Part shown: positions 27,061 through 63,217 of the stretch, piece after piece
Position numbering within the stretch: position 1 is the first letter of the stretch
Layout: each line of letters starts with the position of its first letter
Assembly (NCBI RefSeq): GCF_963921235.1
Contig: NC_086108.1
Location: 13,640,001-13,704,000 of the forward strand
Origin: Mobula hypostoma
Lineage: Eukaryota
Direction: 5' to 3'
Length of the DNA: 64,000 nucleotides
Program-made: the position numbers and the translations under genes
Notes under the pieces: model-generated
What the model was told of the DNA's origin: nothing
Database searches by the model: none
Seen by the model: only the letters and a program-made list of their open reading frames with translations

Positions 27061-27132
27061 ACACATAGGTTACTTTATTGATCAGCTTTACTGATACTAT
27101 TCAACCATCTGAACTTGGAAACAGACACTTAC

Positions 27133-27230: not shown

Positions 27231-28364
27231 CTGTAGAAAGAGCAGGTGACAAGTTAGAATAATCATCTTCAACCCAAATGAGTCTACTGTGTATTTCATT
27301 TCACCTATTTATTATTAAACTTACTCAAGGGCTCAACTTTGTTCAATAATTAAACACACCAATTTGGATCTGACAACTGCTCCAAACAGAACATGGATAG
27401 CCTAACTAGAGAAGGTACTGGACTCAGTTGTAAACACTGTCACTGGGTAGGTGGTTGAAATGTCACAGGGAGAGTGAACATACCTCCTGTGAAATTTAGG
27501 GCTCAGGAAAAACAGAAGGCTGCAGATGCTGGAAACCAAGAACACAAAAAGAGTGTGGAAAGAACTCAAGTCAGGTGGCACCTTACGGCGAAAAAATGAA
27601 CAGTGGACATTTCAGGCTAACAGCTTTCTTCCAAGATTTCAAGTGAGATAAGAATGGCCTGCAAGCCAAGGTCCCAAATGAGATAGAAGGTCAATATCAA
27701 TACTGTAAGGCAAAACCTGACAAATGTACACTGGGCCAGATATTTGCAGCTCAATATGCAATTGGACAAGCAACATCATTTTTAACTGAAATAATGAGAG
27801 CTCAAGGAAAAATGTGTTCTGTGAAGGGTAAAAGATATGGACAGCAATTCAAGGAACTCTGGATTTAGGTTCTGTACAAGAGAAAAATGGAAACCTGTGG
27901 TAGGCCAGAGAACTGAAAACAGGAAGGTTGCTGATTAGTACAAAGAGCATAGGGAGTACTTAAAGAGGAATTAAGACAGTAAAGAGAAACATTAATGTTG
28001 TCTGCTAGTGATATTTAAAGAGAAGATGAAGCATATAATAAATAAAGGGAATCACGAAAAGGGCCCATTGAGTGACTGTAATTTATGTGTGGAATCAGAA
28101 TATACGATGGATCTTAAATGAACATTTCTCATCTTTATTCACTAAAGAACATTGTACATAGCCAGGGAAGGGAAATACAACAAATTATTACAAAGGAATT
28201 AGATAAAGTTGAACAAATCCCAAAGTCAATGAAATGAAACCTAGTCTACGGGAGTCAAGGGAGGAGACAAAGGTAAGGTCGCAGAAGATTGGACAGCAAA
28301 TGTAGTCACTCTCTTCAAAAAAAAAAGGGCAGCTGGGATAAGCCAAGTAATTATAAAATAGTTT

Positions 28365-40365: not shown

Positions 40366-41358
40366 ATAAGCAGGAGGAGAAGATGATGGCGCAACAGCAG
40401 CGCGCACGGCCTCTCCGGTGAATGATATCTATAATCTGTCAAGTAGGGGGCCGTGCACAATTCTGATTTGATGGAGACAGGCGTGAGAGTGCAGAGGAAC
40501 ATCTAGAGAAACTTCTGAAATGCCCGCTTCACTACCGCTGCTACTGTGTGGTAACCGGAATCTCCAGAGCAGAAGGTCCGAATCCTCGGCTTTGCTTGTT
40601 TCAGTGATCGGGGCGAGGTCGAAGGCACTTGGGAGGCTGTATCGGAGGGGCTGGTCGGAGGCTCAAAGTTTTCCGATGGACGGACTCAGTGTCGGCTGTG
40701 GTCGGCTGCTTCCAAGGCATTGGCAAGTTGACGGTGCCTGGAAGTTTATGGCAGGGAGTTTCTCCTTTTTGCCGCCTGCTATCGGGGACTCAGGAGTCAA
40801 TCGACTTGGGGACTTGAGACTTTTTTTTTTACCGTGCCCATGATTTGTGCCTTTAATGATACATGGACTTCACGTCATTCTGCCAAATCACAAATCCTAA
40901 ATCTACATTTCAAGACAGTAAAGTAACATGCCTGAAGTGAAAATAATATTCATCTAAAGACCAAAAGCCATCAAAATTTGTTTCACAGTGCAATTCAGTC
41001 ACATTTTAATGGAACATGTCACTTGCAAAACACCAACAAATCTTTATCACTTTCTCAGCAATAATATTAAATTGAAGAACTTCTGTATTCATCTTTAAAA
41101 ACTGTGGGTATTTAACGGGAAATTTGCTGATAAACCTCTGAAAAATCATGTTTTTGAAATACCAATATATGTGAAGTGTCATTTAGGTTTCATTCCTGTA
41201 ATTCCTTTACGATTATTACTGGCCAACAAGCATAGCAGGTTTGAAGAGATTATTTTCCCCATTCAATTTCCTATTTCACTTTTAGATCTACTCAGAAAAA
41301 CCTGAAGAGATTGGTGTCCACGACAGATTTTGAAAGTTACTTAATGCCATGTACTTAC

Positions 41359-41418
41359 CAGAAACTGTGACCACATTTTGTCATATGTGCCTCTTCAATC
41401 ATCTCAAAACAGATAGGG
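41359..41418 (-). CDS. COP1: COP1/RFWD2 internal exon (human exon 2 equivalent), 60 bp, first half of the RING finger
   Basis: Reverse complement translates (C)[19 protein letters not shown](C), matching COP1 [25 protein letters not shown]; cag acceptor and gtaag donor. Confidence 0.96.
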
Positions 41419-42367
41419 CTGTGAAGGATGAAATAAATAGAAACTTTTATTATACATTGTCTCAACAGGAACATGGGCTAACAGTTCATTAACTATTTGA
41501 ATAGCAAAACTATGAGGATTGATCAATGGTAAGTGGCATTTTCTGTACATGAGCCAGGGAAGAAATAGTCAGGTTCATATCTGATTATTTCACCATGGAG
41601 CATGTGGAAATAGCCAGTGTCACTTTCAAGTTGCTCAGTGGTCACTGACATAAGCATTGCAGGTTTATATGGAAACAAAGCAGGTGAATTCTGATGAAAA
41701 AGAAATCCTGCCAAGTATACCAAATGAAACATTAGATTATTAACTAAACTCAGTATAGCAAATCTCTGAACAAGAATGACACCTAAAAGCCGCTTGGGAA
41801 ACCAGGAACCCTCAAATTACTTACAGGTTGTTCCCTGTCAAAATACACACCCCTTTTTACAAGTGAGCACAAGACAATATTGTCAGAAAATTGAAAAAAA
41901 AAGAAACACAGCGAAGAAACTTGATAAAACATGCATGGAACTGTATGTAATAAATTATATCAAATGCACTCAAGACAGAAAGAAAAACAAAGTGGAAAGG
42001 GAGGGGAAATTATTTCTGCCATTCTTAAGAATGAACATATGTACATAAATCGGGCTTTTGAATTTAACATCATGAGGGGAGATCATTTGTATGCAGGTGT
42101 ATCCATAACCTGGGGATACACTGTAAAGGCAACGGACCACAAACATATATGCACTAATTACAAAGCAAAGCCAAATGACACATCAAATCATAACAGGATG
42201 CCTACAGACCAAGTCCGTGTCATATTCAGCACCATACTCTGCAACATGAACAAAGTAGCAAGTACTAATGACCAACTTGCACAAGGAAAAGCCATCTTCA
42301 ACAGGAGTACAAGCAGTACAACTTCACTCAGAGCACTAACCTTTTCCCCCTTGCATAATATCTACAA

Positions 42368-43314
42368 GCAACACACATCAAAGTTGCTGGTGAACGCAGC
42401 AGGCCAGGCAGCATCTATAGGAAGAGGTGCAGTCGACGTTTCAGGCCGAGACCCTTCGTCAGGACTAACTGAAGGAAGAGTGAGTAAGGGATTTGAAAGC
42501 TGGAGGGGGAGGGGGAGATGCAAAATGATAGGAGAAGACAGGAGGGGGAGGGATGGAGTCGAGAGCTGGACAGGTGATAGGCAGAAGGGGATACGAGAGG
42601 ATCATGGGACAGGAGGTCCGGGAAGAAAGACGGGGGGGGGGGTTGACCCAGAGGATGGGCAAGAGGTATATTCAGAGGGACAGAGGGAGAAAAAGGAGAG
42701 TGAGAGAAAGAATGTGTGCATAAAAAAGAGTAACAGATGGGGTACGAGGGGGAGGTGGGGCCTAGCGGAAGTTAGAGAAGTCAATGTTCATGCCATCAGG
42801 TTGGAGGCTACCCAGACGGAATATAAGGTGTTGTTCCTCCAACCTGAGTGTGGCTTCATCTTTACAGTAGAGGAGGCCGTGGATAGACATGTCAGAATGG
42901 GAATGGGATGTGGAATTAAAATGTGTGGCCACTGGGAGATCCTGCTTTCTCTGGCGGACAGAGCGTAGATGTTCAGCAAAGCGGTCTCCCAGCCTGCGTC
43001 GGGTCTCGCCAATATATAAAAGGCCACATCGGGAGCACCGGACGCAGTATATCACCCCAGTCGACTCACAGGTGAAGTGTTGCCTCACCTGGAAGGACTG
43101 TTTGGGGCCCTGAATGGTGGTAAGGGAGGAAGTGTAAGGGCATGTGTAGCACTTGTTCCGCTTACACGGATAAGTGCCAGGAAGGAGATCAGTGGGGAGG
43201 GATGGGGGGGACGAATGGACAAGGGAGTTGTGTAGGGAGCGATCCCTGCGGAATGCAGAGAGAGGGGGGGAGGGAAAGATATGCTTAGTGGTGGGATCCC
43301 GTTGGAGGTGGCGG
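42368..43314 (-). mobile_element. Penelope-like element 3: simple 5'-truncated copy (GIY-YIG + terminal repeat), 11-bp TSD
   Basis: TSD aatatctacaa at 42357-42367 and 43315-43325; ORF 42762..43088 is nearly identical to 2016..2342. Confidence 0.93.
42431..42466 (-). ncRNA. Minimal hammerhead ribozyme motif (COP1-sense)
   Basis: Same 36-nt motif, core intact. Confidence 0.85.
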
Positions 43315-45147
43315 AATATCTACAACACCAGAATCAGCCAGGCTACCCACTTGCAGGAGGAATGAAAAAGCTTTAGCAGCAAAGCTATTGAAAATAATCA
43401 GTGAGTAACTACCACCCACACCCCTGCACAATCTGGTTTCAATTACCAAAGAAAAACACAGCACAGCCTGAATTGTATGAGAGCTGAATTCCACAGATAC
43501 AAGTTTTTCACAAAAACATGGGGCCCATACACAACTAACCTGATAGGAGAAACATACAAGTAAAGCACAGGAAAGGCACTTTGGCTCACTATGCTGTGCT
43601 AACCTAATTAAACCAGTGACTCCAAATTCATCTAATCTCCTTGTCCTGCACAATGACCTCCCTTCTCTGAACATTCATGACGCTATGTAACAGCATCTCA
43701 AACATTAACTGCCTCTACCACCACCTGTGGCAGTACATTCAAAGCCCCAACCACTGTGTAAAGTAATTGTCCAGTACATCTCTTTCATACTTTCCCCTTC
43801 CCAAATTTATATACATGCTCACCACAGTTCCCTTGGAGACACTGGATTGCGTAGCAGGACTGAGGTTTCAATGAGGGCAGTCGGGATATTCTGCACACCA
43901 CAGCTTCCTTGGAGATGATGGATTGTGCATTACTAGGCACTTGGCAAGGGCCAATAAAAAGGTACGAATTAAGTGGAGGGGCCATTATGAGTGGGCAATG
44001 TTACAGCGTAGAGCTGAGCCTTTGGTTCGTCTAAGTTTTGGAAAGGACAGGTATAGGCCATAGGTAATTTTTTTTGTTACTTATTCTTTCTTTATTATTG
44101 CACATTTAGATCAGTAAGGATGCCAGGCAGGATAATGGAATGTTCCTGTTGCGCAATGTAGGAAGGCAGGGAGACCGCCAGTGTCCCTGACACATAGACC
44201 TGCAAGAAGTGTATCCAGCTGCAGCTACTAACAGACCACGTTAAGGAGTTGGAGCTGGAACTGGATGAACTCAAGATTATTTGGGAGTTGAGGGGTTGAG
44301 AGGCAGGACATACAGAGAGGTAGTTACATTCAAGGTGCAGGTCAAGGGTAACTGGGTGCCCGTCATAAGGGGGAAAGGGATATGCATCTAGTGCGGAGTA
44401 CCCCTGTGGTCATTCCCCTCAAGAACTGGATACTGTTCGGGGGATGACCTAGCAGAATAAAGCCACAATGGTCAGGTCTCTGGGATTGAGTCAGGCTCTG
44501 TGGCTTAGAAGGGAAAGGGGGAGAAGAGGAGAGTTGTAGTGACAGGAGATTAGTTACTTAGGGAAACAAAAAGTAGGTTCTGAGGATGAGAATGAGATTC
44601 CCAGATGGTACATCGCCTCCTGGGTGCCAGGATCAGGATTTTGGATTGAGTGCACAACATTCTTAAGTAGGAGGGTGAGCAGAGGTCATGGTCCATGTGG
44701 GGACGAGGGGTGACAAAAACCTGCAAAGTGAGTTTAGGGAGTAAGTGCCAAGTTAAAGGACAGGATCTCTAGGGTTGTGATCTGAGGATTGCTACCCATG
44801 CCACCTGCTAGTGAGGCCAGAAATAGGAAATACCGTTTAACGTGTGGCTAAGGAGGTGGTACACAAGAGAGGACTTCAGATTTTTGTATCATTGGGCTCT
44901 CTTCTATGGTAGGCGAGACTTGCAGCTCAACTGAAGGGGGGTTAATATCCAAGCAGGTAGGATTGCTAATACTGCACGGAGGATGTTTAAACTAGAGTTG
45001 CAGTGTGATGAGAACCAGAACAGGTAGTGGAGTGGTTGTGAAGAGAGATTTGTTAAGTCTACATACAAAGTCAGGAATCAAAAGGTTGAGCATGGTGGGA
45101 CTAATGTTTTGAGCTGCACATATTTAAATGCAATGAGTATTGTAGGA

Positions 45148-45556
45148 TTGTCACCTTGTCATGATGGAGGAGCCTGTGTGGTCCTGTGATCCCGAGAGCA
45201 ATGCCATCTGGAGCTGTGCTCCTGGTGGGGTCACCCATGGCAGTGAGGTCGAGGGTAAGCTCCCTGAAAGAACAATCCAACCAAGACCTCAATGGTGGAA
45301 CAGGCGGACGAAGTTACTTCAAACTCAACGGCTGCGAAGGCGGATGAAGGCTGCAACAAATCCATCAGCTCCAATCATCATGGTTTCCATGCCATTGGAA
45401 TCAGTTGGTTGATTTGTGAAGTATCGTGTGCCTCTTGAAGTGCAACATCAAGTACACATTAAACAAATATATGCACAGGCGTCTTCACTCTCCGCGGCAC
45501 TTCTTCAGAATGAAGACCATCATCCTCGACCTCGAGGGATAGCCACGACGACGACG
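45148..45556 (+). mobile_element. Short non-autonomous RTE-related retroposon with (ACG)n tail and 9-bp TSD
   Basis: TSD attgtagga at 45139-45147 and 45557-45565; RTE-like 5' end gtcaccttgtcatgatggaggagc; 3' end shared with the LINE at 49446-49749. Confidence 0.75.
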
Positions 45557-45897
45557 ATTGTAGGAAGGGCGGATGAGCTTGAGGCATGAATTAGCATGTA
45601 CAAACGTTTGTAGAATTAGGTCACTGTCATGAGTGAGACTTGGTTGCAGAGGAGGCAAGACTGGCTGCTCAGTGTCTGGGGTTCTAGTCTTTAAGACATG
45701 ATAAGCAGGAGGGATTAGAGGTAAGGGGTGGCATTACTAGTCAGGGAAAATGTCACTGCACTGCTCAATCAGGACAAACTGGAGAGCTTGTCTGGTGAGG
45801 CTTTATGAGTAGAACTGATGTTGAAGAAAGATATGACCATGTTAATGGAATTATACTACAGACCACCCACACAGTGCGGGATCTCAAACTGTTGAAA

Positions 45898-45920
45898 GAA
45901 ACACAAGGTTTTGATAGCAG

Positions 45921-45966
<46 letters not shown>

Positions 45967-46445
45967 GCTGGAGGAACTCAACAGGTCAGCCAGTATTTAT
46001 GGAAATGAATAAACAGTTGATGTTTTGGGCCAAGACCCCTCTTCAGGAATAGAAAAGAAGGGAGAAAACACTGGAATAAAATGGTAGGGGAGGGGAAGGA
46101 GAAGGAGAAGGAAGATAGCTAGAAGGTATAACTAGGATAGATAGATAGGTGAAACCAGGTGAGTAGGAAAGCCAAAGGGCTGGAGAGGAAGGAACCTGAC
46201 AGGAGACGAGAGTGGACCACAGGAAGAAGGGGACCTAAAGGGAGGTGATAGGCAGATGAGAAGAGTTAAGAGGCTAGAGTTGGTAAGACAAGAACGGGGA
46301 GGGGAGGAGAAGTTGTTTTTTTTAAAACCAGAAGGCAACATTGACATTCACACCATCAGCTTGGAGGCCACCCTGATGGAATACAGGGTGTTGCTCATCT
46401 ACTGAGGGTGGTCTCATCTTGACACAAGAGGCAGCCGTGGACCAA
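45898..46445 (-). mobile_element. Older diverged Penelope 3' end (GIY-YIG C-terminal remnant + terminal repeat) containing a (CA)n microsatellite at ~45926-45964
   Basis: EQHPVFHQGGLQADGVNVN resembles EQHLIFRLGSLQPDGMNID; decayed hammerhead at ~46015-46050. Confidence 0.75.
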
Positions 46446-47611
46446 TAGTAGGTAATTTTAACTTCCCGCATATTGACTGGGACTCCCATACTGCAAAAGA
46501 GCTGGATGGGAAAGTTTGTCAAATATGTTCAGGGAAGTTTCCTTCATCAGTACATAGAAATCCCAATTAGAGGGAGTGTGATGCTAGATCTCCTATTAGG
46601 GAATGAGACAGGGTAGGTGACAGAAGTTTGTATAGGGGAACAGCAATGAGGTCATGGACCATATACAGATTACAGAGGAAGTGTTTGCTGTCTTGAGGCA
46701 AATTAGGGTGGCAAATCCCCATGGCCTCCCACAGGACCCTATGGGAGGCTAGTACAGAAATTGCAAGGCCCCCAGCAGAGATATTTAAAATACCCTCAGC
46801 CATGGATGAGGTGCCCGAAGACTGGAAGGTAACTAAAGTTGCTCCGCTGTTTAAGAAAGGCTTTAAAAATAAGGCAGAAAACTACAGGCTGGTGAGCCTG
46901 ACATCAGTAGTCACTAAATTATTTGAAGATATTTAAATGGACCGAATAGATAAGTATTTGGATAGGCAGGGACTGATTAGGGAGTAAACATGGCATTGTG
47001 TGTTAGGTCATGTCTATCCAATGTTACAGAATTTTTCCAAGGAAGTTAACAGCAAAATTGATAAAGGCAAGGCAGCGGATATTGTCTACATAGACTTAGC
47101 AAGACCTTTGACAAGGTCCCACATGGGAGGTTAATCAAGAAAGTTCAATTGCTTGGCATTCAAGATGCAGTAGTAAATTGGATTAAATACTGACTTTGCG
47201 GGAGAAGCCAGTGAGTGGTAATAGACAGTTGCCTCTGACTGGAGACCTGTATTAGTGGAGTGCCACAGGGATCTGTGCTGGACCCGTTACTGTCATCTAC
47301 ATCAACAATCTGGATGATAACATGGTAAACTGGATCAGAAAATTTGCAGATGATACCAAGATTGGGGGGTGTAATGGACAGTGAGGAAGACTATCAAAGG
47401 TTGCACAGCATCTGGAACAGCTGGGGAAATGGACTGAAAAATGGCAGACAGAATTTAAAAGAGACAAGAGTGAGGTGTTGCACTTTGGGTAGGATTCACA
47501 TGGTGAATGACAGTGCCCTGAGGAGTGCAGTAAAACAGAGGGATCTGTAAATACAGATCTATAATTCCTTGAAAGTGGTGCCACATAGGATCATAAAGAA
47601 TTGAGTGCAGG

Positions 47612-48700
47612 TGTTAGGTTGTTGGGTGTTGGGGCACCCTTTGAGAGAAGGTTAGTGCAGTCTGATGTGACCAGAATGAACATTAAATTTTCCCAAATGC
47701 TATTGGTATCGCTTTGCTTTGGAAACTGAAGTAGAAAACCTCAGTTTATTAGAGAAGAACGACGCTTAGCATAGCAAATATAGCTGCTCCTCATTTAACG
47801 AAGGACACTTTTGATGGAATTATTTCTTGTTTATCCACCACCCTTGTAACTCCCGTTGTCATTCTGGAGACATGCAGCCCTTTCATCCCCCGTCTCTTCA
47901 TCTCTTCTGCTGTTTGTTGTTTGTCTCTGATCCTGGAGACGTACATGCCTCTCCTCCTCTGTCTCTTCTTCTCTCATCTTTATTTGTCCTGACTCTTTCA
48001 TTCTGGAGTCGGGCAGCCCTGGCCTCATCCGATTCTTGTTCTCTCCCTCTCCTTGCAGCTTCCCGATGACGTTTGGCGTCATCTCTTGACCACAATGACC
48101 CCTTCCCGTTCCACGCAAGAGAATTAGGCTGACCATTTTTTTTACCCTAATGCTGGATAGAAGATACGATGCAGTAACACCAAAGGATGCTGATTATTCT
48201 TGATGATGTGGTTGGCACTCTCCTAAATGGACGTGATATAGTCACCGCTGTCCTTTGACTGCAGCAAAGGGTCTTATGGGTGTCTCAAAGTACGTCATTA
48301 CAATAAGATTTAATTGTCCCTTATTGATGGGTGGCAGTTAGATCTGTCCCAATCCTGCACATGCTGATGGTGGGGATTAGCAGAATGTGACCCCGCGAAA
48401 TAGAGCTGCCCTGCCCTTTTGCTCCAGTAGGTGTCGCTGCTGAAACTGGCCGTGCGCACGCATTGGGCTGTCGTGTCTCGATTTCCATGATGGCCGATCG
48501 GGTCTCAGGTTAAAAGGGAGCCTGTTTATTTTGGCGAATGAGCAATTTTATACGAATATATAACTCTGAACATTGCCTGCATTCTGTAAGTTAGCGCATT
48601 TTAATTCGATTTAGCCAAAAAAAGTGCCGCTGTAATGCACCGTTTGCGCTAATTGGAGGTCACAAACAGACAGACAGAGCATGAGAGTTTTAGTAGTATA
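47612..48700 (-). mobile_element. Probable internally deleted Helitron
   Basis: Minus-strand 5' end tatactactaaaactctc...(tgtc)n; internal ET.EER..RLQ repeats like Helitron N-terminal STPR repeats; interrupts CR1 with no evident TSD; canonical CTRR 3' end not seen. Confidence 0.55.
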
Positions 48701-49445
48701 TGGAAGTTGAAGTTGTATAAGACATTGGCAAGGCCTAATTTGGAGTTTTGGTCACCTACCTATGGAAGAGATGTCAATAAAGTTGAAAAGAGTACAGACA
48801 AAATTTATAAGGATGTTCAAGCACTTGAGGACCCAAACTATAGGGATGAGTTGAAGAAGACTTTATTTCCTAGATCATAGCAGAATGAGGAGAGATTTGA
48901 TAGAGGTATGCAAAATTATGAGGTAGATTGATAGGGTAAATGCAAGCAGGCTTTTTCCACTGAGGTTGGGAAAGACAACTAGAGGTCATGGGTTAAGGGT
49001 GAAAGGTGAAATGTTTAAGGTGAACATGAAGGAGATCTCCTCCACTCAAGAGGGTGATGAGAGTGTGGAATGAGCTGCCAGCAGATGTGATGGATGCAGG
49101 CTTGATTCAACATTTCTCTTAAATTTGGGTAGGTACACAGATGGGAGGGGTATGGAGGGCTATAATCCAAGAACAGATCAATGGGACTAGGCAGATTAAT
49201 AGTTCAGCATGGACTGAATGGGTCAAAGGGCTTGCTTCTGTGCTGCAGTGTTCTATGACTCAATGACATGCCCTCTAATACTTGCTGTTTCAATCCTGGG
49301 AAGAAAAGACACTGGCTCTCTGCACTTCTCATTATCTTTATAAACTTTAATCAAATCTCCCCTCATTCTCTGCTACTCTACAGAAAATAGTCACAGCTTG
49401 CCCAACCTCACCTCACAGCACATCCTCCAAACCAGGTAATATCCT

Positions 49446-49749
49446 AGTCGTCGTCGTGGCTATCCCTCAAGGTTGAGGATGATGCTCTCAAGTGGCTTAT
49501 GAATCCAATCTTGGCTTTGAAAGTTCTTCCGCATTCAGGACAGGTAGTTCCAGATGGCAGATCGAGCTTTGGTTGTTGCTGCCTCTCTTGCCATTTTCTT
49601 CTCTTTTCTTCTAATTCTGCACATCTGTTGGCTTCGAAAGTTGCTGTTCCTTCTCGGATGATAGCTTGCCAGAGTTTCCTGTCCTTGGCATTGGTTTCCC
49701 AATTGTTGATGTTGATGTTACATTTCTTCATGTTCGCTCTTAAGACGTC
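49446..49749 (-). mobile_element. RTE-clade LINE 3' end with C-terminal C2H2-like finger and 8-bp TSD
   Basis: TSD aatatcct at 49438-49445 and 49750-49757; NWETNAKDRKLWQ...CPECGRTFKAKIGFISHLR; (ACG)n tail. Confidence 0.8.
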
Positions 49750-50574
49750 AATATCCTGGTAAACCACCTCAGCATGCTGTTCATCGCCTCCACGTCCTTA
49801 TAATGAGGCAAGCAGAACTGAACACAATACTCTAAATGTGGCCTGACCACGTTTATAAAGCTGTACATAACTAGCTGACTCTCATACTCAACATCTCAAC
49901 CAATGAAGGCAATCATGACATTTGCCTTCTTTACCCCTTATCAGGTTTGTGACCACTTTCAGGGAATCATATATCTGGACCTCAATATCTCTAGTGCATC
50001 AACCCCGTTAAGATCTTACCACTAACAGTGTGAGTTACATTAATTGTGTCATCTCCTTACACTTGACCAAAGTGCAGCACCCGACACTTGACCTGATTAA
50101 ACTGTAAATGCCACTTCTCCACTCATAACTGTGACTGTCCTTTGGAGCTCTATACACTATTCACAACATCATCTTTGTCATCTGCAATGTACTGACACAT
50201 AACCACATTTTCGTCTAAATCATTTAAATATGAAAAACAGTGGCCCCAGTACCAATCACTCTGGAGCACTACCAGTCAAAGACCTCAATCCAGAATAAGA
50301 ACTATTTAGATGAAAATGTGGTTGTGTGTCAATATATTCTGCACAGAAGATAGAGGTCTTGCACTCTATCTTCTACAGGCAAGACAATTTCAGTTACACT
50401 GTTTCTGGATGAGCCTACTAAGCAAGACCTTGTTGAAAATGCTTAACCAAAATTCAGGTCTATAACATCCACTGCTCAGCCTTCAATCACCTTCAACACT
50501 TCCTCAAACAACTCATTCACTTTAGACAAAAAGGACTCCCTGCACAAAGCCTTGCTGACTATTCCTAAATAGAT

Positions 50575-51395
50575 ATTGATAACATCTCCTTGCTCAATCA
50601 AACAGGTACATCTCAAGGATGCATGTACAGCCCACTGTTGAGCTCTCTACACTCTTAACTGCATGGCTAGGCATAGTTCAAGCACAACCTATAAGTTTGC
50701 CGATTACACACTGTTGTACGCAGAATCTCAGATGGAACAAGATGAGACAAATCGGCTGAATGAATGGTGTCGCAAAAAGGAACTTAACAAAACTTAGTAA
50801 AAGAAAGACCACGAAATTGATTGTGGCCTTCAGGAAGAGGAACTTGAGAGAACAAATACCAGGCCACAATAAGGGGTCAATAGTGGACAAAAGTGTGCAG
50901 CTTCAAGTTCCTAGGCATCAACATGTCAGAGGACATATTGTGGGCCCAACAGATTGATGCAATCATGAAGGCAAGCCAGCAGCTATACTTCATTAGCAGG
51001 TTGAGGAGATTTGGTCTCAGCAAAGACTCAAGAAGATTTCTACAGATGTTCAGTGGAGAGTATTGTAACTGGCTGCATCACAGTCTGGTATGGAGGTTCC
51101 AATGTGTAGGACCAAAAGAAGCTGGAGAGGATTGTAGACTCAGCCAGTTCCATCACAGGCACAATCTGCCCAGCATCAAGGATAACTTCAAAAGACGATG
51201 CCTCAAGAAGGCAGCATTCATCATTAAGGACCCTCACCAATTGGAACATGCCTTCTTCTCATTACTATCATTCAGGAAGAGGTACAGAAGCTTGAAGACC
51301 CACTGAGAAGATTTTAGGAACAGCTTCTTCTCCTCCACCATCAGATTTATGAATCATTTATGATCATTACCTCGCTATTCCTCTTTTGCACCATC
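50575..51395 (+). mobile_element. Rex1/Babar-type LINE RT/3' fragment, decayed
   Basis: YKFAD, KTTKLIVAFRK, SFKFLGINMSED, QQLYFISRLRRFG, RYRSLKTH. Confidence 0.75.
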
Positions 51396-52424
51396 AGATT
51401 CAGGTTTGTTGTCACTGACATAACTCATGAAATTTGCTGTTTTGTGGTAGTAGGACATTACAGGCATAACAAATTGCTGCAAGTTATAATAAAAATAAAT
51501 AGTGTGGTAGAGGGATAGCAAGATAGTATCCACGGACCATTCAAGAGACTGATGGCAGAGGCAAGAAGCTGTTCCTAAAACACTGAGTTTGAGTCTTCAG
51601 GCTTCTTCACTCACTATAACAATGGATGCCACTTTTCTGAGGTACCGCCTTTGGAAGATGTCCTCGATGCTGGAAGGCTAGTGCCCATGATGGAGCTGTC
51701 TGAGTTTGCAACTTTCTGCAGCTTTTTCTGAGCCTATGTATTGCCACCTCCATATCAGATGGTAACGCAACCAGTCAGAATGCTCTCCACAGTACACTTG
51801 CAGAAATTTGCTAGAATCTTTGGTGATACACTAAATAGACCATAAGACATAGGAGCAGAATGAGGCCATTCAGCCAATCGATTCTGCTCCACCATTCCAT
51901 CATGGCTGATTTATTATCCCTTTCAACCCCTTTCTCTTGCTTCTCCCAATAATCTTTGACACTCTTACTAATCAAGAACCTATTAATTTCTGCTTTCAAT
52001 ATACCCAATGACTTGACCTCCACAGCTGTCCATGGCAATGAATTCCACAGATTCACCATCCTCTGGCTAAAGAAATCGAAAGGGGTGTCCTTGTATTTTG
52101 GGACCATGCCCTCTGATCCTACACTCCCACTATTGGAAATAATCTCTCCACATTTGCTAATGTAGGACTTTCAGTATTCAATGGGTTTCAATGAAATCCT
52201 CCAATTCTTCCACTAAGTACACAGGCACAGAGCTCTCCGAAACTGCTAATGAAGTAAAGCCACTGGCGAGCTTTCATCGCGATTGTATCAACATGGAGGG
52301 CACATATTTATTATTTATTTTAATTACTATTTACCATTTCTTGTAACATAATAATCTTTATGTCTTGCGCTGTACTGCTGCCACAAAACAATATTATATA
52401 CAGTATGCCAGTGATAATAGACCC

Positions 52425-53740
52425 GATTCCGATTCTTCTCCAAATGTTCACAAGTCCTACTCCTAAGAATCCTCTCAAATAACTTCCCTGCCAGTGATGT
52501 GAAATTCACTAGTCTACAATTACCAGGATTATCCCTGTTTCTCTTCTTGAATACAGGAACAACGAGCTACCCAACAGTCCTCTACACACCTGTGACTTAT
52601 GAAGATGCAATGATCTTGGTCAAGGATCCAGCAATTTCATTTCTTACCTCTCTCATTTCCCTGGGGTATATCCCATCAAGCCTTAAGAACTTCATGTTAC
52701 CACTTCCTACCTAATCTCAAAATGCCCTAGCATCTTAGCATGCTCCATTATGGTCTCACTATTTGCTACATCCTTCTCGGTAACCTAAAATGTAAAGTAC
52801 TAATTTAGGATTTCATTCATATCCTTCACCTCTAAGCATGTTACTCCTTTATCCTTGACTGGTCCTAACCTCTTGATCTTGATGTATCCGTAGAATGCCT
52901 TGGGATGTAATGTAATCCTACTTGCCAAGGACTTTTCGTGACCCCTTCTAGCTCTCTTGAGTTCCCTTCTGGCTCCTTTATAGTGCTCAAGCATCCTGCT
53001 TCATTCCAGATGCATAAGCCATACATATTCTTCCTTCTTATGAACTTAATTAACAAACTTTCTTATCATCCAAGGTTCCCGTACCTTGCCACTCGTGCCC
53101 TTCCTTCTTACTGGAACAAACTATTCTGAACTCTGTGCAGCGGTTTTTGAACAACCTCACATCAGTTGCAGATTTGCTCAAAAACAACTCTGCCCAATTA
53201 ACTCTCCCTGGGTCCTGGTTAATGTTATCCTAATTTGCTGCCTCCCAATTTAATACTTTTCTGCAAGGTTCATTCTTCTCCTTATTTGCAGCTACCTTAA
53301 AGCTTAAGCTGTGATCACTATTTCCCAAGTGTTCACCAACTGAGGGGTCAGTCACCTGGCCAAGAACATTCCCCAGTACAGCCTCTTCTTGAGATGGACT
53401 AGCCACATACTGCTTCAAGAAACTCTCTTGGACATGTTTAACAAGTTCTGCCCTATCCAAACTTTCTCCACTGAAGAGTTCCAGTCAACATTGTAGAAGT
53501 TGAAGTTATCCACAAATATTTTTGCTCCTCTACATAATCTGCTTGCATATCGGTCCTTCAGTGTCCCTATGACTATTTTGGGGTCAATAGTAAAATCCTA
53601 TTAACTTTATTATTTGAATTCTACCCATGTATTCAATGAGCCCCATCATTTCTTCCCCCAAGAGTGCAGCTCTGATGTTGCCCCTCACGAATAATGCAAC
53701 TCTTCCCCTTTATATCGCCCCATCTCTTCTAAAACATCAA
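52425..53740 (-). mobile_element. Decayed CR1 ORF2 fragment
   Basis: GEHLGNSDH, RRARRGHEKSLASRI..PKAFYGYIK, TSLAGKLFERILR. Confidence 0.7.
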
Positions 53741-54024
53741 AACACTGGAGCATAACACAAAGGATCATCAAATGAGATCCCTCACTTCAACTCAACACAT
53801 TCTACATCTAACACACACAACAGGAGTCCTGTGCAAAATACCAGAGAAAGTCATAGTTGGACAAAGGTGCAGTGCCTCAAGAAAAATGCCCAATACTACA
53901 GGTCAACAGAAAAAAGTTAACACCACTTTAAAAATTCAAAAAAAAACAGCATTCCCCTTCATCAAAACTAGTTTATGAAAATGCCAGGCATGAAACACCT
54001 TAAATAAAAGCCCATTATTTAATT

Positions 54025-54325
54025 GTGTTGGCGCATGGCCAAGTGGTTAAGGCATTCGTCTAGTGATTTGAAGGTCGCTAGTTTGAGCCTTGGCTGAGGC
54101 AGCGTGTGCGTCCTTGAGCAAGGCACTTAACCTTGAGTAACGACACCAGTGCCAAGCTGTATGGGTCCTAATGCCCTTCCCTTGGACAACATCGGTGGCG
54201 TGGAGAGGGGAGATTTGCAGCATGGGCAACTGCTGATCTTCCATACAATCTTGCCCAGGCCTGCGCCCCGGAAACCTTCCAAGGCGTAAATCCATGGTCT
54301 CATGAGACTAACGGATGCCTATTAT
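54025..54325 (+). mobile_element. tRNA-derived CORE-type SINE
   Basis: A-box tggccaagtgg, B-box-like agtttgagcc, gtccttgagcaaggcacttaacc, (tat)n tail. Confidence 0.7.
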
Positions 54326-54335
54326 TATTTAAGTA

Positions 54336-55829
54336 CAGGTGTCCCCCGCTTTTTGAACGTTCTCTTTATGAAACCTCACTGTTACGAAAAAAGCAGCGGG
54401 TGAAAAAAGGTAGCTTAAACACGTGGCTGTGAGCAGCCGTTTGCAAGATGAGTTCTAAGGTATCAGAAAAGCCTGAAAGAGCTCCTAACGGTGTTACACT
54501 AGACATAATTAAGCGTTTCGATCGTGGTGAACCAAGTGAGGACAAAGTGAGTTTGGCTTGTGGAAGTTGACGAAGATGATGTTGAAGAGGTTTTGGCATC
54601 CCATGACAAAGAACTGATAGATGAAGAGCTGATGCAATTGGAAGAGGAAAGGATAACAATTGAAATAGAATGCAGTAGCAAACGGACCGAAAGTGAAGTC
54701 CTCCAGGAACTGAACGTGAAGCAAATGCCTGAGATTTTCGCTGCAATGATAAAGTACGACTTTAATTTTGAAAAGGTACATCGGTTTAGGGCATATTTGC
54801 AAGATGGTTTACAAAGAACTGTATGATTGAAAAATGCGCGAGGCTAGCAGTCAAGCATACTGTTGTTTTTCAAGCCTTCCACATCAGCCACAGCAGACGA
54901 CGAACCTTGACCTTTGACATCGAGGCAGACAGACATAGAAGATGACCAACCTGCCCTGATCGACAATGAGATGACACCCCAGTGTCCCACCACCCCAGTG
55001 GTCCCAACCCCCGGGCCGCGGACGGATACCAATTCGCGGAGAATGCAGCGGTAGCCAGGAGGCACCCAGCATGTCTTTAAGAAAAAAGCCAAAAATTGTG
55101 AATGCCAATTGTGTCGCCTCTGATCTGGGCCGACATTTACATGCTGGGCAGCACCTAATTAATTAACTTGATTATTTCAGCTTTTTTTCTTAAAGATGTG
55201 CTGGGTGCGTCCCGGCCACTGCTGTACCCCTGCGTGCTTCGCGGATCGGTATCGGTCGGCAGCCCGGAGGGTCGGGGCCACTGCACCACCCCAACCTCTG
55301 ACGACTCAGCCTAACACACCATCATCAGCATGCTCGGCGCTGTCTTCCAGATTCTCGTAACTGATATTACACTGTACATACATTATTTCTACTTTATATA
55401 GGCTGTGTATTTTATGTGTTATTTAGTATGATTTGGCAGCTTCATAGCTTAAAGGTTACTGGAGAGAGTGTTTCTGCCGAGAGCGCTTGCGTGAGATTTT
55501 CTGCCAACGGCGCTTGCGCCGTGTTTCTGCCAAGAGCGCTTGTGTGAGATTTTCGCTACGGAGAACTGTGCAGGCAATCGTTGTAGAGAAGTATTTCTAA
55601 TTTATATAGGCCGTATATTTATCATATCATTCCTGCTTTTACTATATGTTACTGTTATTTTAGGTTTTATATGTAATTTGGCATGATTTGGTAGGTTATT
55701 TTTGGGTCTGCGAACGCTCACAAATATTTTCCATATAAATAAATGGTAATTGCTTCTTCACTTTTTGACATTCCGGCTTACGAACCGTTTCATAGGAACA
55801 CTCTACCTTCAAATGGCAGGGGAAACCTG
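54336..55829 (+). mobile_element. Internally deleted Tigger/pogo transposon with TA TSD
   Basis: ta|caggtgtcccccgcttt ... ggggaaacctg|ta; N-terminal MSSKVSEK..LDIIKRFDRGE (psq/CENP-B HTH-like) joined to acidic C-terminus EVDEDDVEEVLASHDKELIDEELMQLEEE; DDD core missing. Confidence 0.85.
54996..55283. mobile_element. Palindromic hAT/Charlie-type MITE nested in the Tigger element
   Basis: cagtggtccc...ggggccactg termini; perfect 8-bp TSD caccaccc at 54988-54995 and 55284-55291; long internal inverted symmetry. Confidence 0.85.
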
Positions 55830-56939
55830 TATTAAAGAGCAATGTGCACAGTTCTACTCACCACACACTAGGAAAGATGCAACAGAAACAGTGAGAATGA
55901 TGAAGAATTCCCCCAACTGCAGGTATAAGGAAAACTCCCACTGGAATAAAGGAAGTGGAGGATGACCTTGCAGAAGTTTATAAAATAATTATGGGAATAG
56001 ATAGGACAGTCAGAATATCTTCTCCCAAGGTCGTGGACTCTAGATGTTGAGGGCACAGGGTTAAAGTGAGAAGGGAGAAATTTAAATGAAAGACAGAACT
56101 GCTCCACAAGTTAAGGTCCTAAACTAGCAGGACCAGTTTTGAGAGTTGGATCCTGCAGAGGTCAAATGGGTGAGACAGTCTGCAGATAGAGATGACTAGT
56201 GAGTGGAATGCTTTTAAAAGTGTGATAACAGGAGTCCAGGTGAAGTAATGTTCCTGTCAGACAGAAGAGCAGGCTGGATGGAAAAAGATACTATGTGGCT
56301 CCAATCAGGAAAAGGAGGCATATATCAGGTTTAGGCCATCAAGAACAAGTGATTCCCCAAATGTTTTTTGCAGGAGTGCACTTAAGGAAATCAGACAGGG
56401 TTAAGAGAGGGGAGCTATGGCTTTAGCAAAGAGAAGGGGGCTAAAGCGAAGTTTCTGTTTAGTTCTCTTTCTTTTTTCTATTATTGCATAGTTAGGTGGT
56501 ATGGTCCTCTTGAACCTAGTATCCCTGATGAGTGTACCTGAAAGAGTGCATCCAGCCGCAGCTCCTTACAAACTGCATTAGGGAACTGGAGCTGGATGAT
56601 CTACAGATCATTCAAGAGAGAGAGGTTTATTGACAAGAGTTACAGGAAGGCAGTTACTCCTAAGTTGCATGATGTGGGAGGCCTTCAAAAGTGAAATATT
56701 AACAGTGAAGAGTTTGTCTGATCCTGGTAGAATTAAAAAAAGGCTAACAGCTAGGGAACTTTGGTTTGAGGGATCAAATGAAAGATGGAGGAGATCTTAA
56801 TTTTGCTTTGCGTGTCTGTATTTACTCAGGAGATAGACATGGAGTCTGTACAATTGTTGCAAAATAGTAAAGGTCATGGACCGTATCTGGATTACAGAAG
56901 AGGAAGCTTGCTGTCTTGAGACAAATTAGGGTGGATAAA

Positions 56940-57223
56940 TTTATTTTTATTTATTTACTGAGATACAGCTGAAATAGGCCCTTCAAGCCACGCCACCCAT
57001 CAATCCTTGATTTAATCCAAGCCTAATCACAGGTTAATTTACAATGACCAATTAACCTACCAACTGGTACATCTTTGGACTCTGGGAGGAAACCAGAGCA
57101 CCCAAAGGAAACCCACACGGTCACGGGGAGAATGTACAACCTCCTTACAGGTAGCAGCAGGAATTGAATCTAGGTTGCTGGTACTGTAAAGCATTGTGCT
57201 AATCACTACACAACCATGCCACC
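56940..57223 (-). mobile_element. HE1-like V-SINE inserted in CR1
   Basis: Homologous to 17070-17355; A-rich tail (ttat)n on the plus strand. Confidence 0.7.
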
Positions 57224-58069
57224 TCTACAAAAATTTTTTGTGCTTTTCAAGGTGTCCCCTTAAACCTTGCAGGAGGCCAGTGCAGAAACTGCAGGGACTC
57301 TGACAGAAATATTTAAAACATCCTTAGCCATGTGTGAAGTGCCAAAGAGTGGAAGTTTACAAATGTTCTGTCGTTCAAAAAAGGCTCCAAGAATAAGCCA
57401 GAAAATTATAGGCAAAGGAGCCTGATGTCAGTTGTGGGTAAATTATTAGAAGGTATTCTATGGGAGAGGATATTTGGATAGACAGGACCTCATTAGGATA
57501 CTCAACATGACTTTTATGTGTGGTAGGTCATGCCTAGCCAATCTTACAGCAGTGTGTTCCTGGCACCTACCACTCTCTGTAAATTAAGAACTTGCCTCGC
57601 ACACCTCCCTTTAAAATTTCTCCCTCCCACATTACAAGCAAGTCCTCCAATATTCAACACTTCCACCCTGGGAAAAAGACCAACTATCCATCCTAAAAGG
57701 GCCAACGCCCTTCATCAGGACTAATGTAATGGCAGCTGCAGAACTTTCTTGAGAGGGAAAGCAAACAGCTAGAGGTTATCGCACATTACAAACAAGATAG
57801 GCAGAGCAGGGATGATCATACAGAATGACTATAGGGAATTCAGTCAGAAGTTAAGTAGCAGGACCTTGAGGTTGGTGATCTCCAGATTACTCCCAGTACC
57901 ATGTGCTTGTGAGGTCAGATACAGAAGGATAGGCCAAATGAATTTTAGCTGAGAAGCTGGGACAGGGATTCAGGTTCTTGAATAACTGGGATCTCTTCTA
58001 GGGCAGAGGGACAAGTTGCACTTGATCCATGCAGAAAAATTTGCTAATGCTACATGGAAGGAGTTAATA

Positions 58070-58327
58070 AAATCCCTTACTCACTCTTCCTTCAGTTAGT
58101 CCTGACGAAGGGTCTCGGCCTGAAACATCGACTGCACCTCTTCCTATAGATGCTGCCTGGCCTGCTGCGTTCACCAGCAACTTTGATGTGTGTTGCTTGT
58201 AGATATTATGCAAGGGGGAAAAGGTTAGTGCTCTGAGTGAAGTTGTACTGCTTGTACTCCTGTTGAAGATGGCTTTTCCTTGTGCAAGTTGGTCATTAGT
58301 ACTTGCTACTTTGTTCATGTTGCAGAG
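58070..58327 (+). repeat. 258-bp inverted duplicate of 42237-42494 (Penelope 3' end with hammerhead + ~130 bp unique intron flank)
   Basis: Reverse complement matches 42237-42494 except one CpG transition; ORF 58064..58330 repeats part of ORF 41931..42968. Confidence 0.95.
58098..58133 (+). ncRNA. Hammerhead motif (COP1-antisense) with stem III palindrome mutated from ACGU to ACAU
   Basis: agtc ctgacga agggtctcggcct gaaa catc gact. Confidence 0.75.
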
Positions 58328-58782
58328 CACGCAAGGCTTAAAAACCGGAGAGTTGATCAGCTGAGGACTGGCATGTTATAGCCATAACAGAAATGTACCC
58401 GAGACAAGGGCAGATTTGGCAGCTCAATAATCCAGGAGACAGATGCTACAGGCATGACAGAGGTACAGGCAAGTGAAGAAGTGGTGTCCCTTTTGATAAG
58501 GGAGGACATAACTGCACTGCTTAGAAATGACATTCTTATGGAATCGCCCAGTGAAGTCATAAGCATAGAAGTTAGAAACAAAAGGTTACTCCAGTGTAGA
58601 ATTGCCAGTGGGAATTGAGGAGCAGATGCACAAAGATATTGCTCAGCAATGTAAGAATAAAACAATTTTTATTAATCAGAGATTTCAATTTCTGCAGTAT
58701 TGACTAGTCAGGGTGTCAAGGGCCCAAATTGGGTGGAATTTGTTAATGTGTCCAGGGAAGTTTCTTGAGTCAAAATATAGAG

Positions 58783-60470
58783 CAGTGGTTTTCCAAGTGG
58801 GCAATATTGCCACCCCAATCATGTTTTGCCTGATTTATGATGACATCTTAACTTTCCCCTTTATTAATCGCAATACTTCAGGTTGGAATTAAATAAAATG
58901 CAATTGACTGTAGTCACTGATCCATAATGAAAAAGGCAAAAGCAGACCAAATGAAATAGAAGTGTAGACAGTAGAGTATGCAGTATCTGAAATATGAATT
59001 TATACCAGCACCAAGCAATTAACATGCAAAATGCGCCTGTTGTGTGAAAATGCTTTCAAATGAGGCAATGAAACCGCCCAGGCTCATTGAACATTACTCA
59101 GATAAAGCAAACAAGATCCTGTCTTATTTTCAGCCACTTTGTGAAAACTTACAGAAACAGCAAACACTTCAAAAGATGTTTGCCAGCACTTAACAACAAA
59201 ACAGTGATGGTTTGCGGGCTTCATACAACATCTCACTGTTTATTACTAAATCTGGAAAGCCATACATGGAGAAGAACTGATTCTGTCAACAGTAAGGGAG
59301 GTTCTGAGTACAGTTTTGCATAAATCACCGGACCAAATAATTAAAGCGATTCCGCTCAGCAATAGCTCTGTTCAAAGACAAGTAAATGAAATATCTGAGA
59401 ATGTGGAAGACACATTGTGCAACATACTTAGGACAACAGAATTTGCTCTGCAGTTGGATGAGTCAAATTTGTTAGGCAATGAATCTTTCTTCTTGGTTAT
59501 ATTCGCTTCATAAATGATAAAAGTATGGTTCAAGAGTTTTTATTTGCAAAGGGACGAGAAACAGGTCAGAAAGAGAAGTCAATATTTCAAGATGCTGAAC
59601 AATTTTTCCCCAAAGAGAACAACAATCTGTTCACCAACATTGTTGCTTATGCAACGGATGAGGTACCATCAATGACAAGACGGGATGGGGTGATTATTTT
59701 CTTGAAAAAAATCTGTACACAACATATTTATTATTCACTATGCAATTCACAACATCTTTCTGAAAAATATCTAAGTGATCGGCTGCACAAATAATTAAAT
59801 ACTGTTATCACTGCGATAAACAAAATCAAGTCCATGCTCTGAATTCGATTATTTCAAAAGTTTTGTGTTGAGAATGATGAACTGTTTGAACTCTTGCTGT
59901 TGCATACAGAAGTCAGATGGCTCTCAAAAGGAAAATGCCTGTGATGCTTTTATGCGCTTTCTGAAACAGTGAAAATAAACTTTGAAGACTGAAATGCTTC
60001 ATTTTACAATCAATTGAAGATTTTTAGGCATGACATTACTTATTTGTCAGAATTATTCACAAAATTTAATGAAATCATCTTCAAAGAAATTGCATGAATC
60101 TTATCAAAATCAAATCCACTGTTTTCTATATTCCTGTCCAAGTTTTAAGTGCAACAATGGCCATCGCGACCTTTTCCCATTTCCGAGCCAGAGGTGGAAG
60201 AGAAAGAAAAACACTTGATCATCTTCAAATTTATTGTGTCCACCTGGGTGAGCTGCATAAAGACATGTTAGAGATTAAAGCATCTTCTCTCAATCCAAAT
60301 GCCAGATTAGGTAATAAATCCATTCCCAAACACTTATAATGAAGAATTAACAGGAAGGATGGAAATAGGACTAATCTCACTACAAAATGACTGAGCTAAA
60401 GCTGAGGTTCAAGAAATCATATCAAGACTTGTGGTTGCAGTAATAAATCTCTGAACACTATCCTGCAGAT
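58783..60470 (+). mobile_element. Decayed hAT Charlie/Buster-type transposon, 3'-truncated
   Basis: TIR-like cagtggttttccaagtggg; transposase remnants IPLSNSSVQRQVNEISENVE..FALQLDES, ATDEVPSM, LLLHTEVRWLSKG. Confidence 0.85.
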
Positions 60471-61915: not shown

Positions 61916-62936
61916 ACATCTTTTTATTGATCAATAATGGGTTATTGACTAAAACAAAGAAAACAGGGATTCAGTAAACAAGGTAAAGCACATTACAGGA
62001 TAATATTTCTAACAAAAGGCAAGGCCACCCAATCAACCAACTCGTTGGGATATTTCAAACTATTTTATTCATTGAAAGATTCAGCACGGTAACAGGCGCT
62101 TCTGACTCAACAACCCTGCATTGCCCAATTACACCCATGCGACAATTAACCCACTAATCCATACAGATTTAGAATGCAAGAAGAAACTGGAGCATCTGGA
62201 GGCCACAATAAAGTGGCCACCGAGAGAAAAGTAGTGGGCACAACACTAAGCCCTATGGATCACCAGATACCAGCAAGCAACCAGAGAGGCCCCTTTGTTC
62301 ACATTCTGCCTTTTGCCAGTCAGCCAATCCTCTGTCTGTGCTAGCATCTTTCCTGTAAAGTTGGGCTCTTATTTTAACAGCCTCATGCATGGCATATTGT
62401 TCAAGGCCTTTTAAAAATCCAAGTAAACAACATCCACCGAGTCTCCTTTGTCTATTCTGTCTGTAATTTCCTCAAAGATTTCCAACAGATTGACAAACAA
62501 GATTTTCCCATGCTGACGTCAGCCTCATCTATCATGCACCTCCAAGTACCCTGAGACTTCATCCTTAATAATGGATTCAAACATCTTGCCAATCACCGAA
62601 GCCAGGCTAACTGGCCTATAATTTCCTGTCTTTTGTTTTCCTTCCTTCTTGGAGTAATGACATTAAGAACGACAGCATGACAAGCCAAATAACTAAAAGG
62701 CAATTAGTCTAATATCAGTAGTGGTGAGGGACAGAATCAACCAGCATATAGACAAAGTATGATTAGGAGTTAGCAAAGGCGTTGTGCACGGAAGTCTTGC
62801 TTGATACACCTTTTAGAACTTTTAAAAGAATGAAAAAAAAGAAATATGAGGGCAGAACAGTGCATGCTGTCTATCACGAGTAAACTCACCAAACCTCTGA
62901 CTCAGGAAGTTAATGTCTGCTTCTGCAAATGGATGC

Positions 62937-63217
62937 AACACACATAAAAGTTGCTGGTGAACGCAGCAGGCCAGGCAGCATCTCTAGGAAGAGGTACAGT
63001 CGACGTTTTGGGCCGAGTCCCTTCATCAGGACTAACTGAAAGTAGTTAGTCCTTCTTTCACATTGTTACTTCTTTCAGTTAGTCCTGACGAAGGGTCTCG
63101 GTCCAAAACGTCGACTGTACCTCTTCCTAGAGATGCTGCCTGGCCTGCTGCGTTCACCAGCAACTTTTATGTGTGTTGCTTGAAATTCCACCATCTGCAG
63201 ATTTCCTCGTGTTTGCG
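62937..63217. mobile_element. Penelope-like element 4: 281-bp hairpin made only of two inverted terminal-repeat ends, 16-bp TSD
   Basis: TSD ttctgcaaatggatgc at 62921-62936 and 63218-63233; 108-bp arms 62935-63042 and 63072-63179; hammerhead motifs at 62998-63033 (-) and 63081-63116 (+), both with GAAA changed to AAAA. Confidence 0.9.

What the first reader, a model, noticed from the sequence alone, without database searches (positions are those of the whole stretch)
42237..58327. Penelope 3' end plus 130 bp of its unique flank copied, inverted, 15.6 kb away in the same intron
Seen: 58070-58327 is the reverse complement of 42237-42494 with one CpG change. It runs across the element 3 terminus and TSD into non-repetitive intron DNA, so the source is identified (diagnostic bases match element 3, not elements 1 or 2). 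It interrupts collinear CR1 pieces, with no TSD and no poly(A), and probably with target deletion. Inference: either a local 3' transduction by Penelope RT of a read-through or COP1-intron RNA, starting ~28 nt upstream of the ribozyme, or templated double-strand-break repair.
Basis: partly seen in the sequence, partly recalled or inferred. Interest (0 to 1): 0.75.

Follow-up and report, generated by a model that had tools for sequence, protein, structure and literature searches.

The report
Repair patch copied from nearby Penelope
A 256-base piece made of a young jumping gene's end plus its neighbouring DNA was copied backwards to a spot 15.6 kb away in the same intron, where it replaced about 154 bases; it is real and recent, and is most likely an ordinary DNA-break repair patch rather than a product of the jumping gene's own copying.

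Summary
Confirmed. 58070-58327 is the reverse complement of 42237-42494 (257 of 258 bases); the flank occurs only twice in the genome. Short-read contigs show doubled depth on the flank, and a second sample bridges the right junction. A related species (about 1.8% diverged) has both empty sites: it lacks element 3 (one copy of the 11-bp TSD) and has 154 other bases where the copy now sits. So the copy came with a ~154-bp target deletion, 2-bp microhomology on one side, 2-nt filler on the other, and no TSD or poly(A). This is the commonest breakpoint class of repair-mediated duplications (Pace 2009). Native insertions of this Penelope family cut at the same base have a TSD or TSD-like repeat in 45 of 49 loci, and that base is no special start site. 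Published Poseidon RT starts inside the element, not in the flank. Best reading: DNA-templated repair patch (0.68). An RNA-templated patch from COP1 intron RNA (0.2) or Penelope-coupled copying (0.1) remain open: both events are equally young and the right end sits on a splice-acceptor-like AG. An unverified scan note reports a similar inverted copy 14 kb away on other DNA of this genome.

The parts
42237..42494 (-). Donor segment: 127 bp of element 3's tail-less 3' end + 11-bp TSD + 120 bp unique intron flank
58070..58325 (+). Templated copy (256 bp; 258 with the shared AG), inverted relative to the donor, antisense to COP1
58068..58069 (+). 2-nt filler (TA) at the left junction; matches neither organism B's empty site, which stops matching at 58067, nor the donor exactly
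   Evidence: (X5 record 17)
58326..58327 (+). 2-bp microhomology (AG) shared by donor and target at the right junction
   Evidence: (X5 record 17 resumes at 58326)
57732..58067 (+). Left piece of the old CR1-like LINE target; about 154 bp that followed it in organism B are gone
58326..58783 (+). Right, collinear piece of the same CR1-like target
42368..43314 (-). Element 3: single-arm, 5'-truncated, tail-less Penelope-like insertion with a GIY-YIG frame; absent in organism B
   Evidence: (X7 record 17)
42357..42367 (+). Left TSD copy of element 3 (11 bp), included in the copied segment
43315..43325 (+). Right TSD copy of element 3 (11 bp)
42431..42466 (-). Minimal hammerhead-like motif of element 3 (core motifs read by eye; no Rfam hit)
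58098..58133 (+). Same motif in the copy; the single change (58127) hits the cleavage triplet and the palindromic helix-III segment
42239..42262 (-). Splice-acceptor-like pyrimidine tract + CAG at the donor's flank-side breakpoint (post hoc; use not shown)
41356..41455 (-). COP1 exon 2 (RING); donor and copy lie upstream of it in intron 1

Best explanation
The copy is likely a repair-mediated duplication: a break or stalled fork in an old CR1 remnant lost about 154 bp, and a free 3' end likely copied 256 bases from chromosomal DNA 15.6 kb away before rejoining. Shown: donor identity, inverted orientation, both events younger than the split from organism B, target deletion, 2-bp microhomology, 2-nt filler, no TSD or poly(A). 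Inferred: strand invasion at the AG microhomology on the right side, synthesis through flank, TSD and 127 bases of element 3, then end-joining with filler on the left (SDSA-like or microhomology-mediated template switch). In this reading the Penelope end is a passenger that makes the donor easy to recognise.
For: Organism B's 957-bp contig matches to 58067, has 154 other letters, and resumes at 58326. Microhomology + deletion + filler is the largest class, 10 of 39, among proximal repair-mediated duplications in Pace et al. 2009 (PMC2671141, parts 1-2 of 8 read). The donor is local: random integration within 15.6 kb either side in 3.48 Gb has a chance of about 1e-5 (arithmetic). Of 49 distinct native loci truncated at the same base (first 50 of 148 matches), 38 have an exact TSD of 8 bp or more and 45 have a TSD or TSD-like repeat; the copy has none. 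In 1.864 Mb, 72 young arm 3' ends fall 0-18 or 25-54 bases from the tail end, as expected from the two internal RT start sites reported for Anolis Poseidon (PMC11167929, parts 1-2 of 4); the copy would have had to start 131 bases beyond the element. No poly(A) or AATAAA in the copied flank (sequence).
Against: Distance (15.6 kb) and deletion size (154 bp) exceed Pace's defining set (under 5 kb; deletions 1-15 nt), though 58 of 882 same-chromosome cases were over 5 kb. It is the only young (over 97%) low-copy dispersed local duplication found in 1.864 Mb outside two tandem clusters, and it straddles a young Penelope end; such ends would be hit by about 0.8% of random donors (72 ends x 200 bp / 1.864 Mb; the window was selected for this feature). 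Element 3 (3 private changes in 947 bp, 5 more rare alleles) and the copy (1 in 258) are not distinguishable in age. The donor is in COP1 sense, so an RNA template exists, and its breakpoint sits on an acceptor-like AG ranked 13-36 of 1422 AGs by a crude score.
Confidence: 0.68

Rival explanations
1. RNA-templated patch at a pre-existing break (class 2 TSI / endonuclease-independent type). COP1 intron-1 RNA, still near its locus and carrying element 3 in sense, was reverse-transcribed from the broken end by Penelope RT or another RT. The RNA 3' end may be a cryptically spliced intron ending at the CAG at 42239.
For: Element 3 is sense to COP1; RNA-type runs cover exon 2 deeply and the intron thinly (RNA status is the tool's guess). 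Junction features are also those of class 2 TSIPs, which were partly RNA-derived in cell assays (PMC5110952, parts 1-2 of 4). The breakpoint interval contains an acceptor-like site found about 1.6 times per kb. The copy ends where native arms often end: 36 of 72 arms stop 108-175 bases from the tail end. Poseidon showed a faint product primed at the RNA 3' end.
Against: The acceptor score is crude and was one of several features I looked for. No joint at 42239 among the 15 of 287 joints shown, and no raised depth between 42239 and exon 2. Experimental TSIs came from distant loci, not nearby ones. The truncation base is not a hotspot. If the RNA ended at CAG, the 2-bp match with the target would be a 1-in-16 coincidence.
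Confidence: 0.2
2. Penelope-coupled copying: either true 3' transduction by target-primed RT with later loss of the TSD, or one event in which the same Penelope complex made element 3 and cut the second site, which was then sealed from the nascent flank-cDNA strand.
For: Both events fall on the same short branch and have compatible ages. Poseidon cuts both strands at AT-rich ATT motifs, and the left junction is AT-rich. One of 49 native loci (L250) also shows an arm beside an apparent target loss of roughly 90 bp (size judged from recalled CR1 layout). PLEs can mobilise host DNA between pLTRs (PMC3846280 passages). An unverified scan note describes a similar case (e1-9267780).
Against: No TSD, whereas 45 of 49 comparable native loci have one. 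Internal RT initiation. No shared flank for any of the other 20 TSD-negative elements within 1.864 Mb, apart from flanks that are multicopy repeats. The best orphan candidate, L257, has a single-copy flank; L250's flank has no near-identical second copy.
Confidence: 0.1
3. Inversion of the 15.6-kb interval with a staggered break that duplicated the 258 bp, or an assembly artefact.
For: Inverted duplicates at the two ends of a segment are the expected scar of staggered-break inversions (own knowledge); no COP1 exon lies between the two copies to fix orientation. The left junction is crossed by only 24 contig letters.
Against: Organism B is collinear across both sites (record 17: 41100-42356 joined to 43315-44142; record 17: 57421-58067 to 58326-58469). 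Doubled depth, one base difference and a bridging contig from a second sample.
Confidence: 0.02

Closest known systems
Repair-mediated duplications (RDs), Pace, Sen, Batzer and Feschotte 2009, PMC2671141 (parts 1-2 of 8 and passages read)
   Same: Insertion of 50+ bp inside an interrupted TE, exactly one donor, same chromosome, size in range (mean 162, max 619 bp), microhomology + deletion + filler, no poly(A), lineage-specific with an orthologous empty site; an opposite-orientation intronic example is described; RDs reported in zebrafish.
   Different: Donor 15.6 kb away (their core set is under 5 kb); deletion about 154 bp (theirs 1-15 nt); donor straddles a young Penelope end.
Class 2 templated sequence insertion polymorphisms (Onozawa and Aplan 2016 review, PMC5110952, parts 1-2 of 4 read)
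   Same: No TSD, no poly(A); microhomology, deletion and untemplated bases; size within the 73-414 bp experimental range.
   Different: TSI donors are described as distant; here the donor is in the same intron. Polymorphism was not shown here.
[quoted passage not shown] 2020, PMC7025897, passages read)
   Same: Same topology: a small loss replaced by an inverted copy of a nearby segment, with two junctions.
   Different: Those are somatic cancer events; this one is germline, very small and in a fish-like genome.
Endonuclease-bearing Penelope/Poseidon insertions (Frangieh et al. 2024 PMC11167929, parts 1-2 of 4; Arkhipova et al. 2013 PMC3846280, passages)
   Same: Element 3 and its family fit: RT and GIY-YIG frames, tailed and tail-less 3' ends, inverted second arms, TSDs, minimal hammerhead-like motif.
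   Different: The copy itself lacks a TSD, starts outside the element and replaced target DNA. The Adineta host-gene capture is framed by pLTRs with a TSD.

Membership tests
Repair-mediated duplication (Pace 2009) | Insert of 50+ bp interrupting a TE, with one other copy in the genome | tested here: met
Repair-mediated duplication (Pace 2009) | Microhomology, deletion and/or filler at breakpoints, checked on an orthologous empty site | tested here: met
   (X5 record 17); the 154 letters themselves were not printed
Repair-mediated duplication (Pace 2009) | No poly(A)/T tail and no retrotransposition TSD | tested here: met
Repair-mediated duplication (Pace 2009) | Donor within 5 kb (the paper's ad hoc cut-off for confident calls) | tested here: not met
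   15,576 bp gap; it falls in their 'distant, same chromosome' group, so I file it as the same kind of event, outside their core set
Repair-mediated duplication (Pace 2009) | DNA, not RNA, template | not testable with these tools
   intronic donor: no splice junction or tail inside the copy to tell
Penelope 3' transduction by TPRT | TSD around element end plus flank | tested here: not met
   deletion instead; 45 of 49 native controls have TSD or TSD-like repeats
Penelope 3' transduction by TPRT | RT start at one of the family's two terminal sites | tested here: not met
   terminus distribution; the copy extends 131 bp beyond
Penelope 3' transduction by TPRT | Recurrent flank sharing among family copies | tested here: inconclusive
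   none besides this case among 49 elements in 1.864 Mb, 0 of 2 orphan flanks searched genome-wide; small sample
EN+ Penelope-like element (element 3 and family) | RT plus C-terminal GIY-YIG | tested here: met
   GIY-YIG above cut-off in elements 1 and 3; RVT_1 E 3e-5 but below cut-off in element 1
EN+ Penelope-like element (element 3 and family) | Optional 30-40 nt tail, inverted second arm, TSD | tested here: met
EN+ Penelope-like element (element 3 and family) | Hammerhead ribozyme in the terminal repeat | tested here: inconclusive
   core motifs seen by eye and fit the minimal type of PMC4209133 (passages); no Rfam hit at gathering score; lowest-energy fold is not the hammerhead; cleavage untested

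The most novel reading that the evidence does not exclude
A Penelope reverse transcriptase, bound to its own terminal stem-loop inside nascent or excised COP1 intron RNA, patched a break in the same gene by priming at the RNA's 3' end (a cryptic splice acceptor). PLEs would then drive local, TSD-less retro-patching that duplicates host DNA 10-20 kb from young insertions, and this would recur genome-wide.
Probability: 0.12. Interest if true: 0.65.

Novelty: new member of a known kind. Interest (0 to 1): 0.22.

Why it matters
As a repair-mediated duplication it is one more, unusually well-resolved instance of a known germline process, with no sign of function: it is intronic, antisense to COP1, and its ribozyme motif is mutated. 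It is a caution that element-end-plus-flank chimeras can mimic 3' transduction. It would matter more if such chimeras proved enriched at young Penelope ends, since how PLE insertions are completed in vivo is open and this genome has about 25,000 near-identical arms to test it on.

Tried and rejected
Rfam scan at gathering thresholds: 0 hits. DNA search with the element terminus returned nothing because common words are skipped; patterns were used instead. Pattern at 169 bases from the end (176 matches) is inflated by a CC variant and was not used as a truncation count. Three pattern searches gave counts but no loci. A 1.4-kb inverted pair 15.8 kb apart at C50:13,999,985 / 14,017,141 looked like a second case but is a multicopy repeat with 40 of 40 scored matches at 94-100%. 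Other local two-copy pairs were 75-95% identical, several with LTR- or TIR-like ends; one 190-bp direct pair (91.6%, 1.6 kb apart) was left unresolved; two tandem clusters were left out. L233 looked like a 42-bp transduction but has an imperfect TSD inside an integrase-like frame. No RNA holder is on record among the runs; X8 has no cover of the copy's flank part and X12 none at the donor flank, which shows nothing about polymorphism. Literature searches for Penelope 3' transduction (listings only, plus passages of PMC3846280) showed no paper describing it by that name; most subscription journals are not in the library, and no supplements were opened. Search for nearby earlier notes gave none.
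Full report
Observation. Self-comparison of the window gives 42237-42494 against 58327-58070 at 257 of 258 bases. The donor consists of 120 bp of intron, the 11-bp left TSD of element 3 (42357-42367; right copy 43315-43325) and the last 127 bp of element 3. The only change is CpG to CpA at 58127; most family reads carry G there (table 3), so the copy's base is derived. The flank has 2 candidates and 2 matches in the 3.48-Gb genome. Among 33 full-length matches to the element part in 1.864 Mb, element 3 is closest.

Setting. Exons at about 41356-41455 and in frame 27104-27253 match human COP1, and exon 1 lies about 1 kb past the window end. Both sites are therefore in intron 1, with element 3 in gene sense and the copy antisense. 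Element 3 has a GIY-YIG frame, and element 1 has GIY-YIG plus a weak RT match. The hammerhead-like motif was read by eye and fits the minimal type of PMC4209133 (passages); Rfam gave no hit and the lowest-energy fold is different. The copy sits in an old CR1-like LINE (family name recalled) whose two halves are collinear in paralogues, with about 125-140 bp missing.

Reality and history. In run X1 the contig over the duplicated flank has depth 24.2, against 11.2-12.9 for single-copy neighbours; run X10, from another sample and study, bridges the right junction with 96 and 380 letters. X1 may be the assembly's own sample, and the left junction is crossed by only 24 letters. Organism B, which differs at 37 of 2087 aligned bases, has both empty sites. 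One 2410-bp contig joins 42356 directly to 43315, so element 3 is absent and the TSD is single (X7 record 17). One 957-bp contig matches to 58067, carries 154 other letters and resumes at 58326 (X5 record 17). The copy thus replaced about 154 bp, shares AG with the target on the right, and has 2 extra bases on the left. B is collinear at both sites, which excludes an inversion with staggered breaks. Element 3 has 3 private changes in 947 bp (5 more rare alleles) and the copy 1 in 258; the two ages cannot be separated.

What native insertions look like. In 1.864 Mb around the window there are 49 young family insertions (88% identity or more, the copy included): 21 are two-armed, and 28 have an exact TSD of 8 bp or more by script. 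The 72 arm 3' ends fall either at the tail end or 25-54 bases before it. This fits the two internal RT start sites shown for Anolis Poseidon, whose dominant product did not change when 3' RNA was added, with only a faint 3'-end product (PMC11167929, parts 1-2 of 4). Genome-wide, 148 arms break at the same base as the copy with both preceding letters changed, against 25,291 that read through; nearby bases give 100 and 64. So the point 28 nt upstream of the ribozyme is at most about twice as common as its neighbours. Of the first 50 of those 148 matches (49 distinct loci), 38 have an exact TSD of 8 bp or more, 7 more have a 7-bp or imperfect one, and 4 are unresolved. Two of the four were searched: L257's flank is single-copy and L250's has no near-identical second copy; L246 and L256 were not searched. 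None of the other 20 TSD-negative elements in the 1.864 Mb shares a low-copy flank within that stretch.

Mechanism. Deletion plus microhomology plus filler, no tail, one nearby donor and an interrupted TE define the repair-mediated duplications of Pace et al.; that breakpoint combination is their largest class, 10 of 39 (PMC2671141, parts 1-2 of 8). Class 2 TSIPs have the same junctions (PMC5110952, parts 1-2 of 4), and the topology equals the loss-plus-inverted-duplication two-jump of cancer genomes (PMC7025897, passages). I infer that the right broken end invaded the donor at AG, copied 256 bases and was joined to the left end with filler. I put this at 0.68.

Results against that reading. 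The distance and deletion are larger than in Pace's core set. No other young low-copy dispersed duplication turned up in 1.864 Mb outside two tandem clusters, so I have no local background of Penelope-free patches, and the one case straddles a Penelope end of the same age; random donors would do so about 0.8% of the time, although the window was chosen for it. The donor is transcribed in sense, and its flank-side breakpoint interval includes a CAG with a pyrimidine tract ranked 13-36 of 1422 AGs in the intron by a crude score of my own. That was noticed after the fact, and RNA-type contigs show no sign of its use. Half of native arms end in the same broad zone as the copy (36 of 72). These points keep an RNA-templated patch at 0.2 and Penelope-coupled copying at 0.1. 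An earlier scan note (e1-9267780) reports a like case, inverted and 14 kb apart; I could not check it, and it is not counted as support.

Verdict. Real, lineage-specific and well resolved; a new instance of a known kind of repair duplication, with a small chance of revealing a Penelope-linked local copying route. Searches listed no paper on 3' flank transduction by Penelope elements, but the library lacks most subscription journals and I opened no supplements. Interest 0.22.

Noticed in passing
window 1582-4875, 7780-9209, 62923-63214; 1.864 Mb of C50: The family's usual insertion is two divergent arms, one tailed and one tail-less, inside an 11-17 bp TSD; this matches priming from both cut strands at the two RT start sites reported for Poseidon.
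   Followed up: partly
window 9187-9435 (minus) and 9209: Element 2 ends within a few tens of bases of a frame that reads like a COP1 coiled-coil exon (label recalled); any effect on splicing was not examined.
   Followed up: no
L247, L249, L250 (arm 5' junctions); L233: Short stuttered repeats of element sequence at arm 5' ends, suggesting repeated RT re-priming at the junction.
   Followed up: no
L250:349-476: Single arm in a CR1-like 3' region with apparent loss of roughly 90 bp of target and no TSD; may be a two-armed insertion trimmed later.
   Followed up: partly
L257:350-476: Young tail-less single arm without a clear TSD; its flank is single-copy in the genome.
   Followed up: yes
window 57697-57724: Short degenerate remnant of the same ribozyme-end motif on the minus strand, 350 bp left of the copy.
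   Followed up: no
window 42237-42494 and 58070-58327: Donor and copy are inverted repeats in one pre-mRNA and could form a 258-bp duplex (possible editing substrate); not testable with contigs.
   Followed up: no
G000:C50:14575738-14575927 and 14577530-14577717: 190-bp direct pair, 91.6% identical, 1.6 kb apart, low copy: a possible older repair duplication.
   Followed up: partly
G000:C50:12.84-12.96 Mb and 13.06-13.125 Mb: Two clusters of 1-9 kb tandem duplications about 0.5-0.8 Mb from the window.
   Followed up: no
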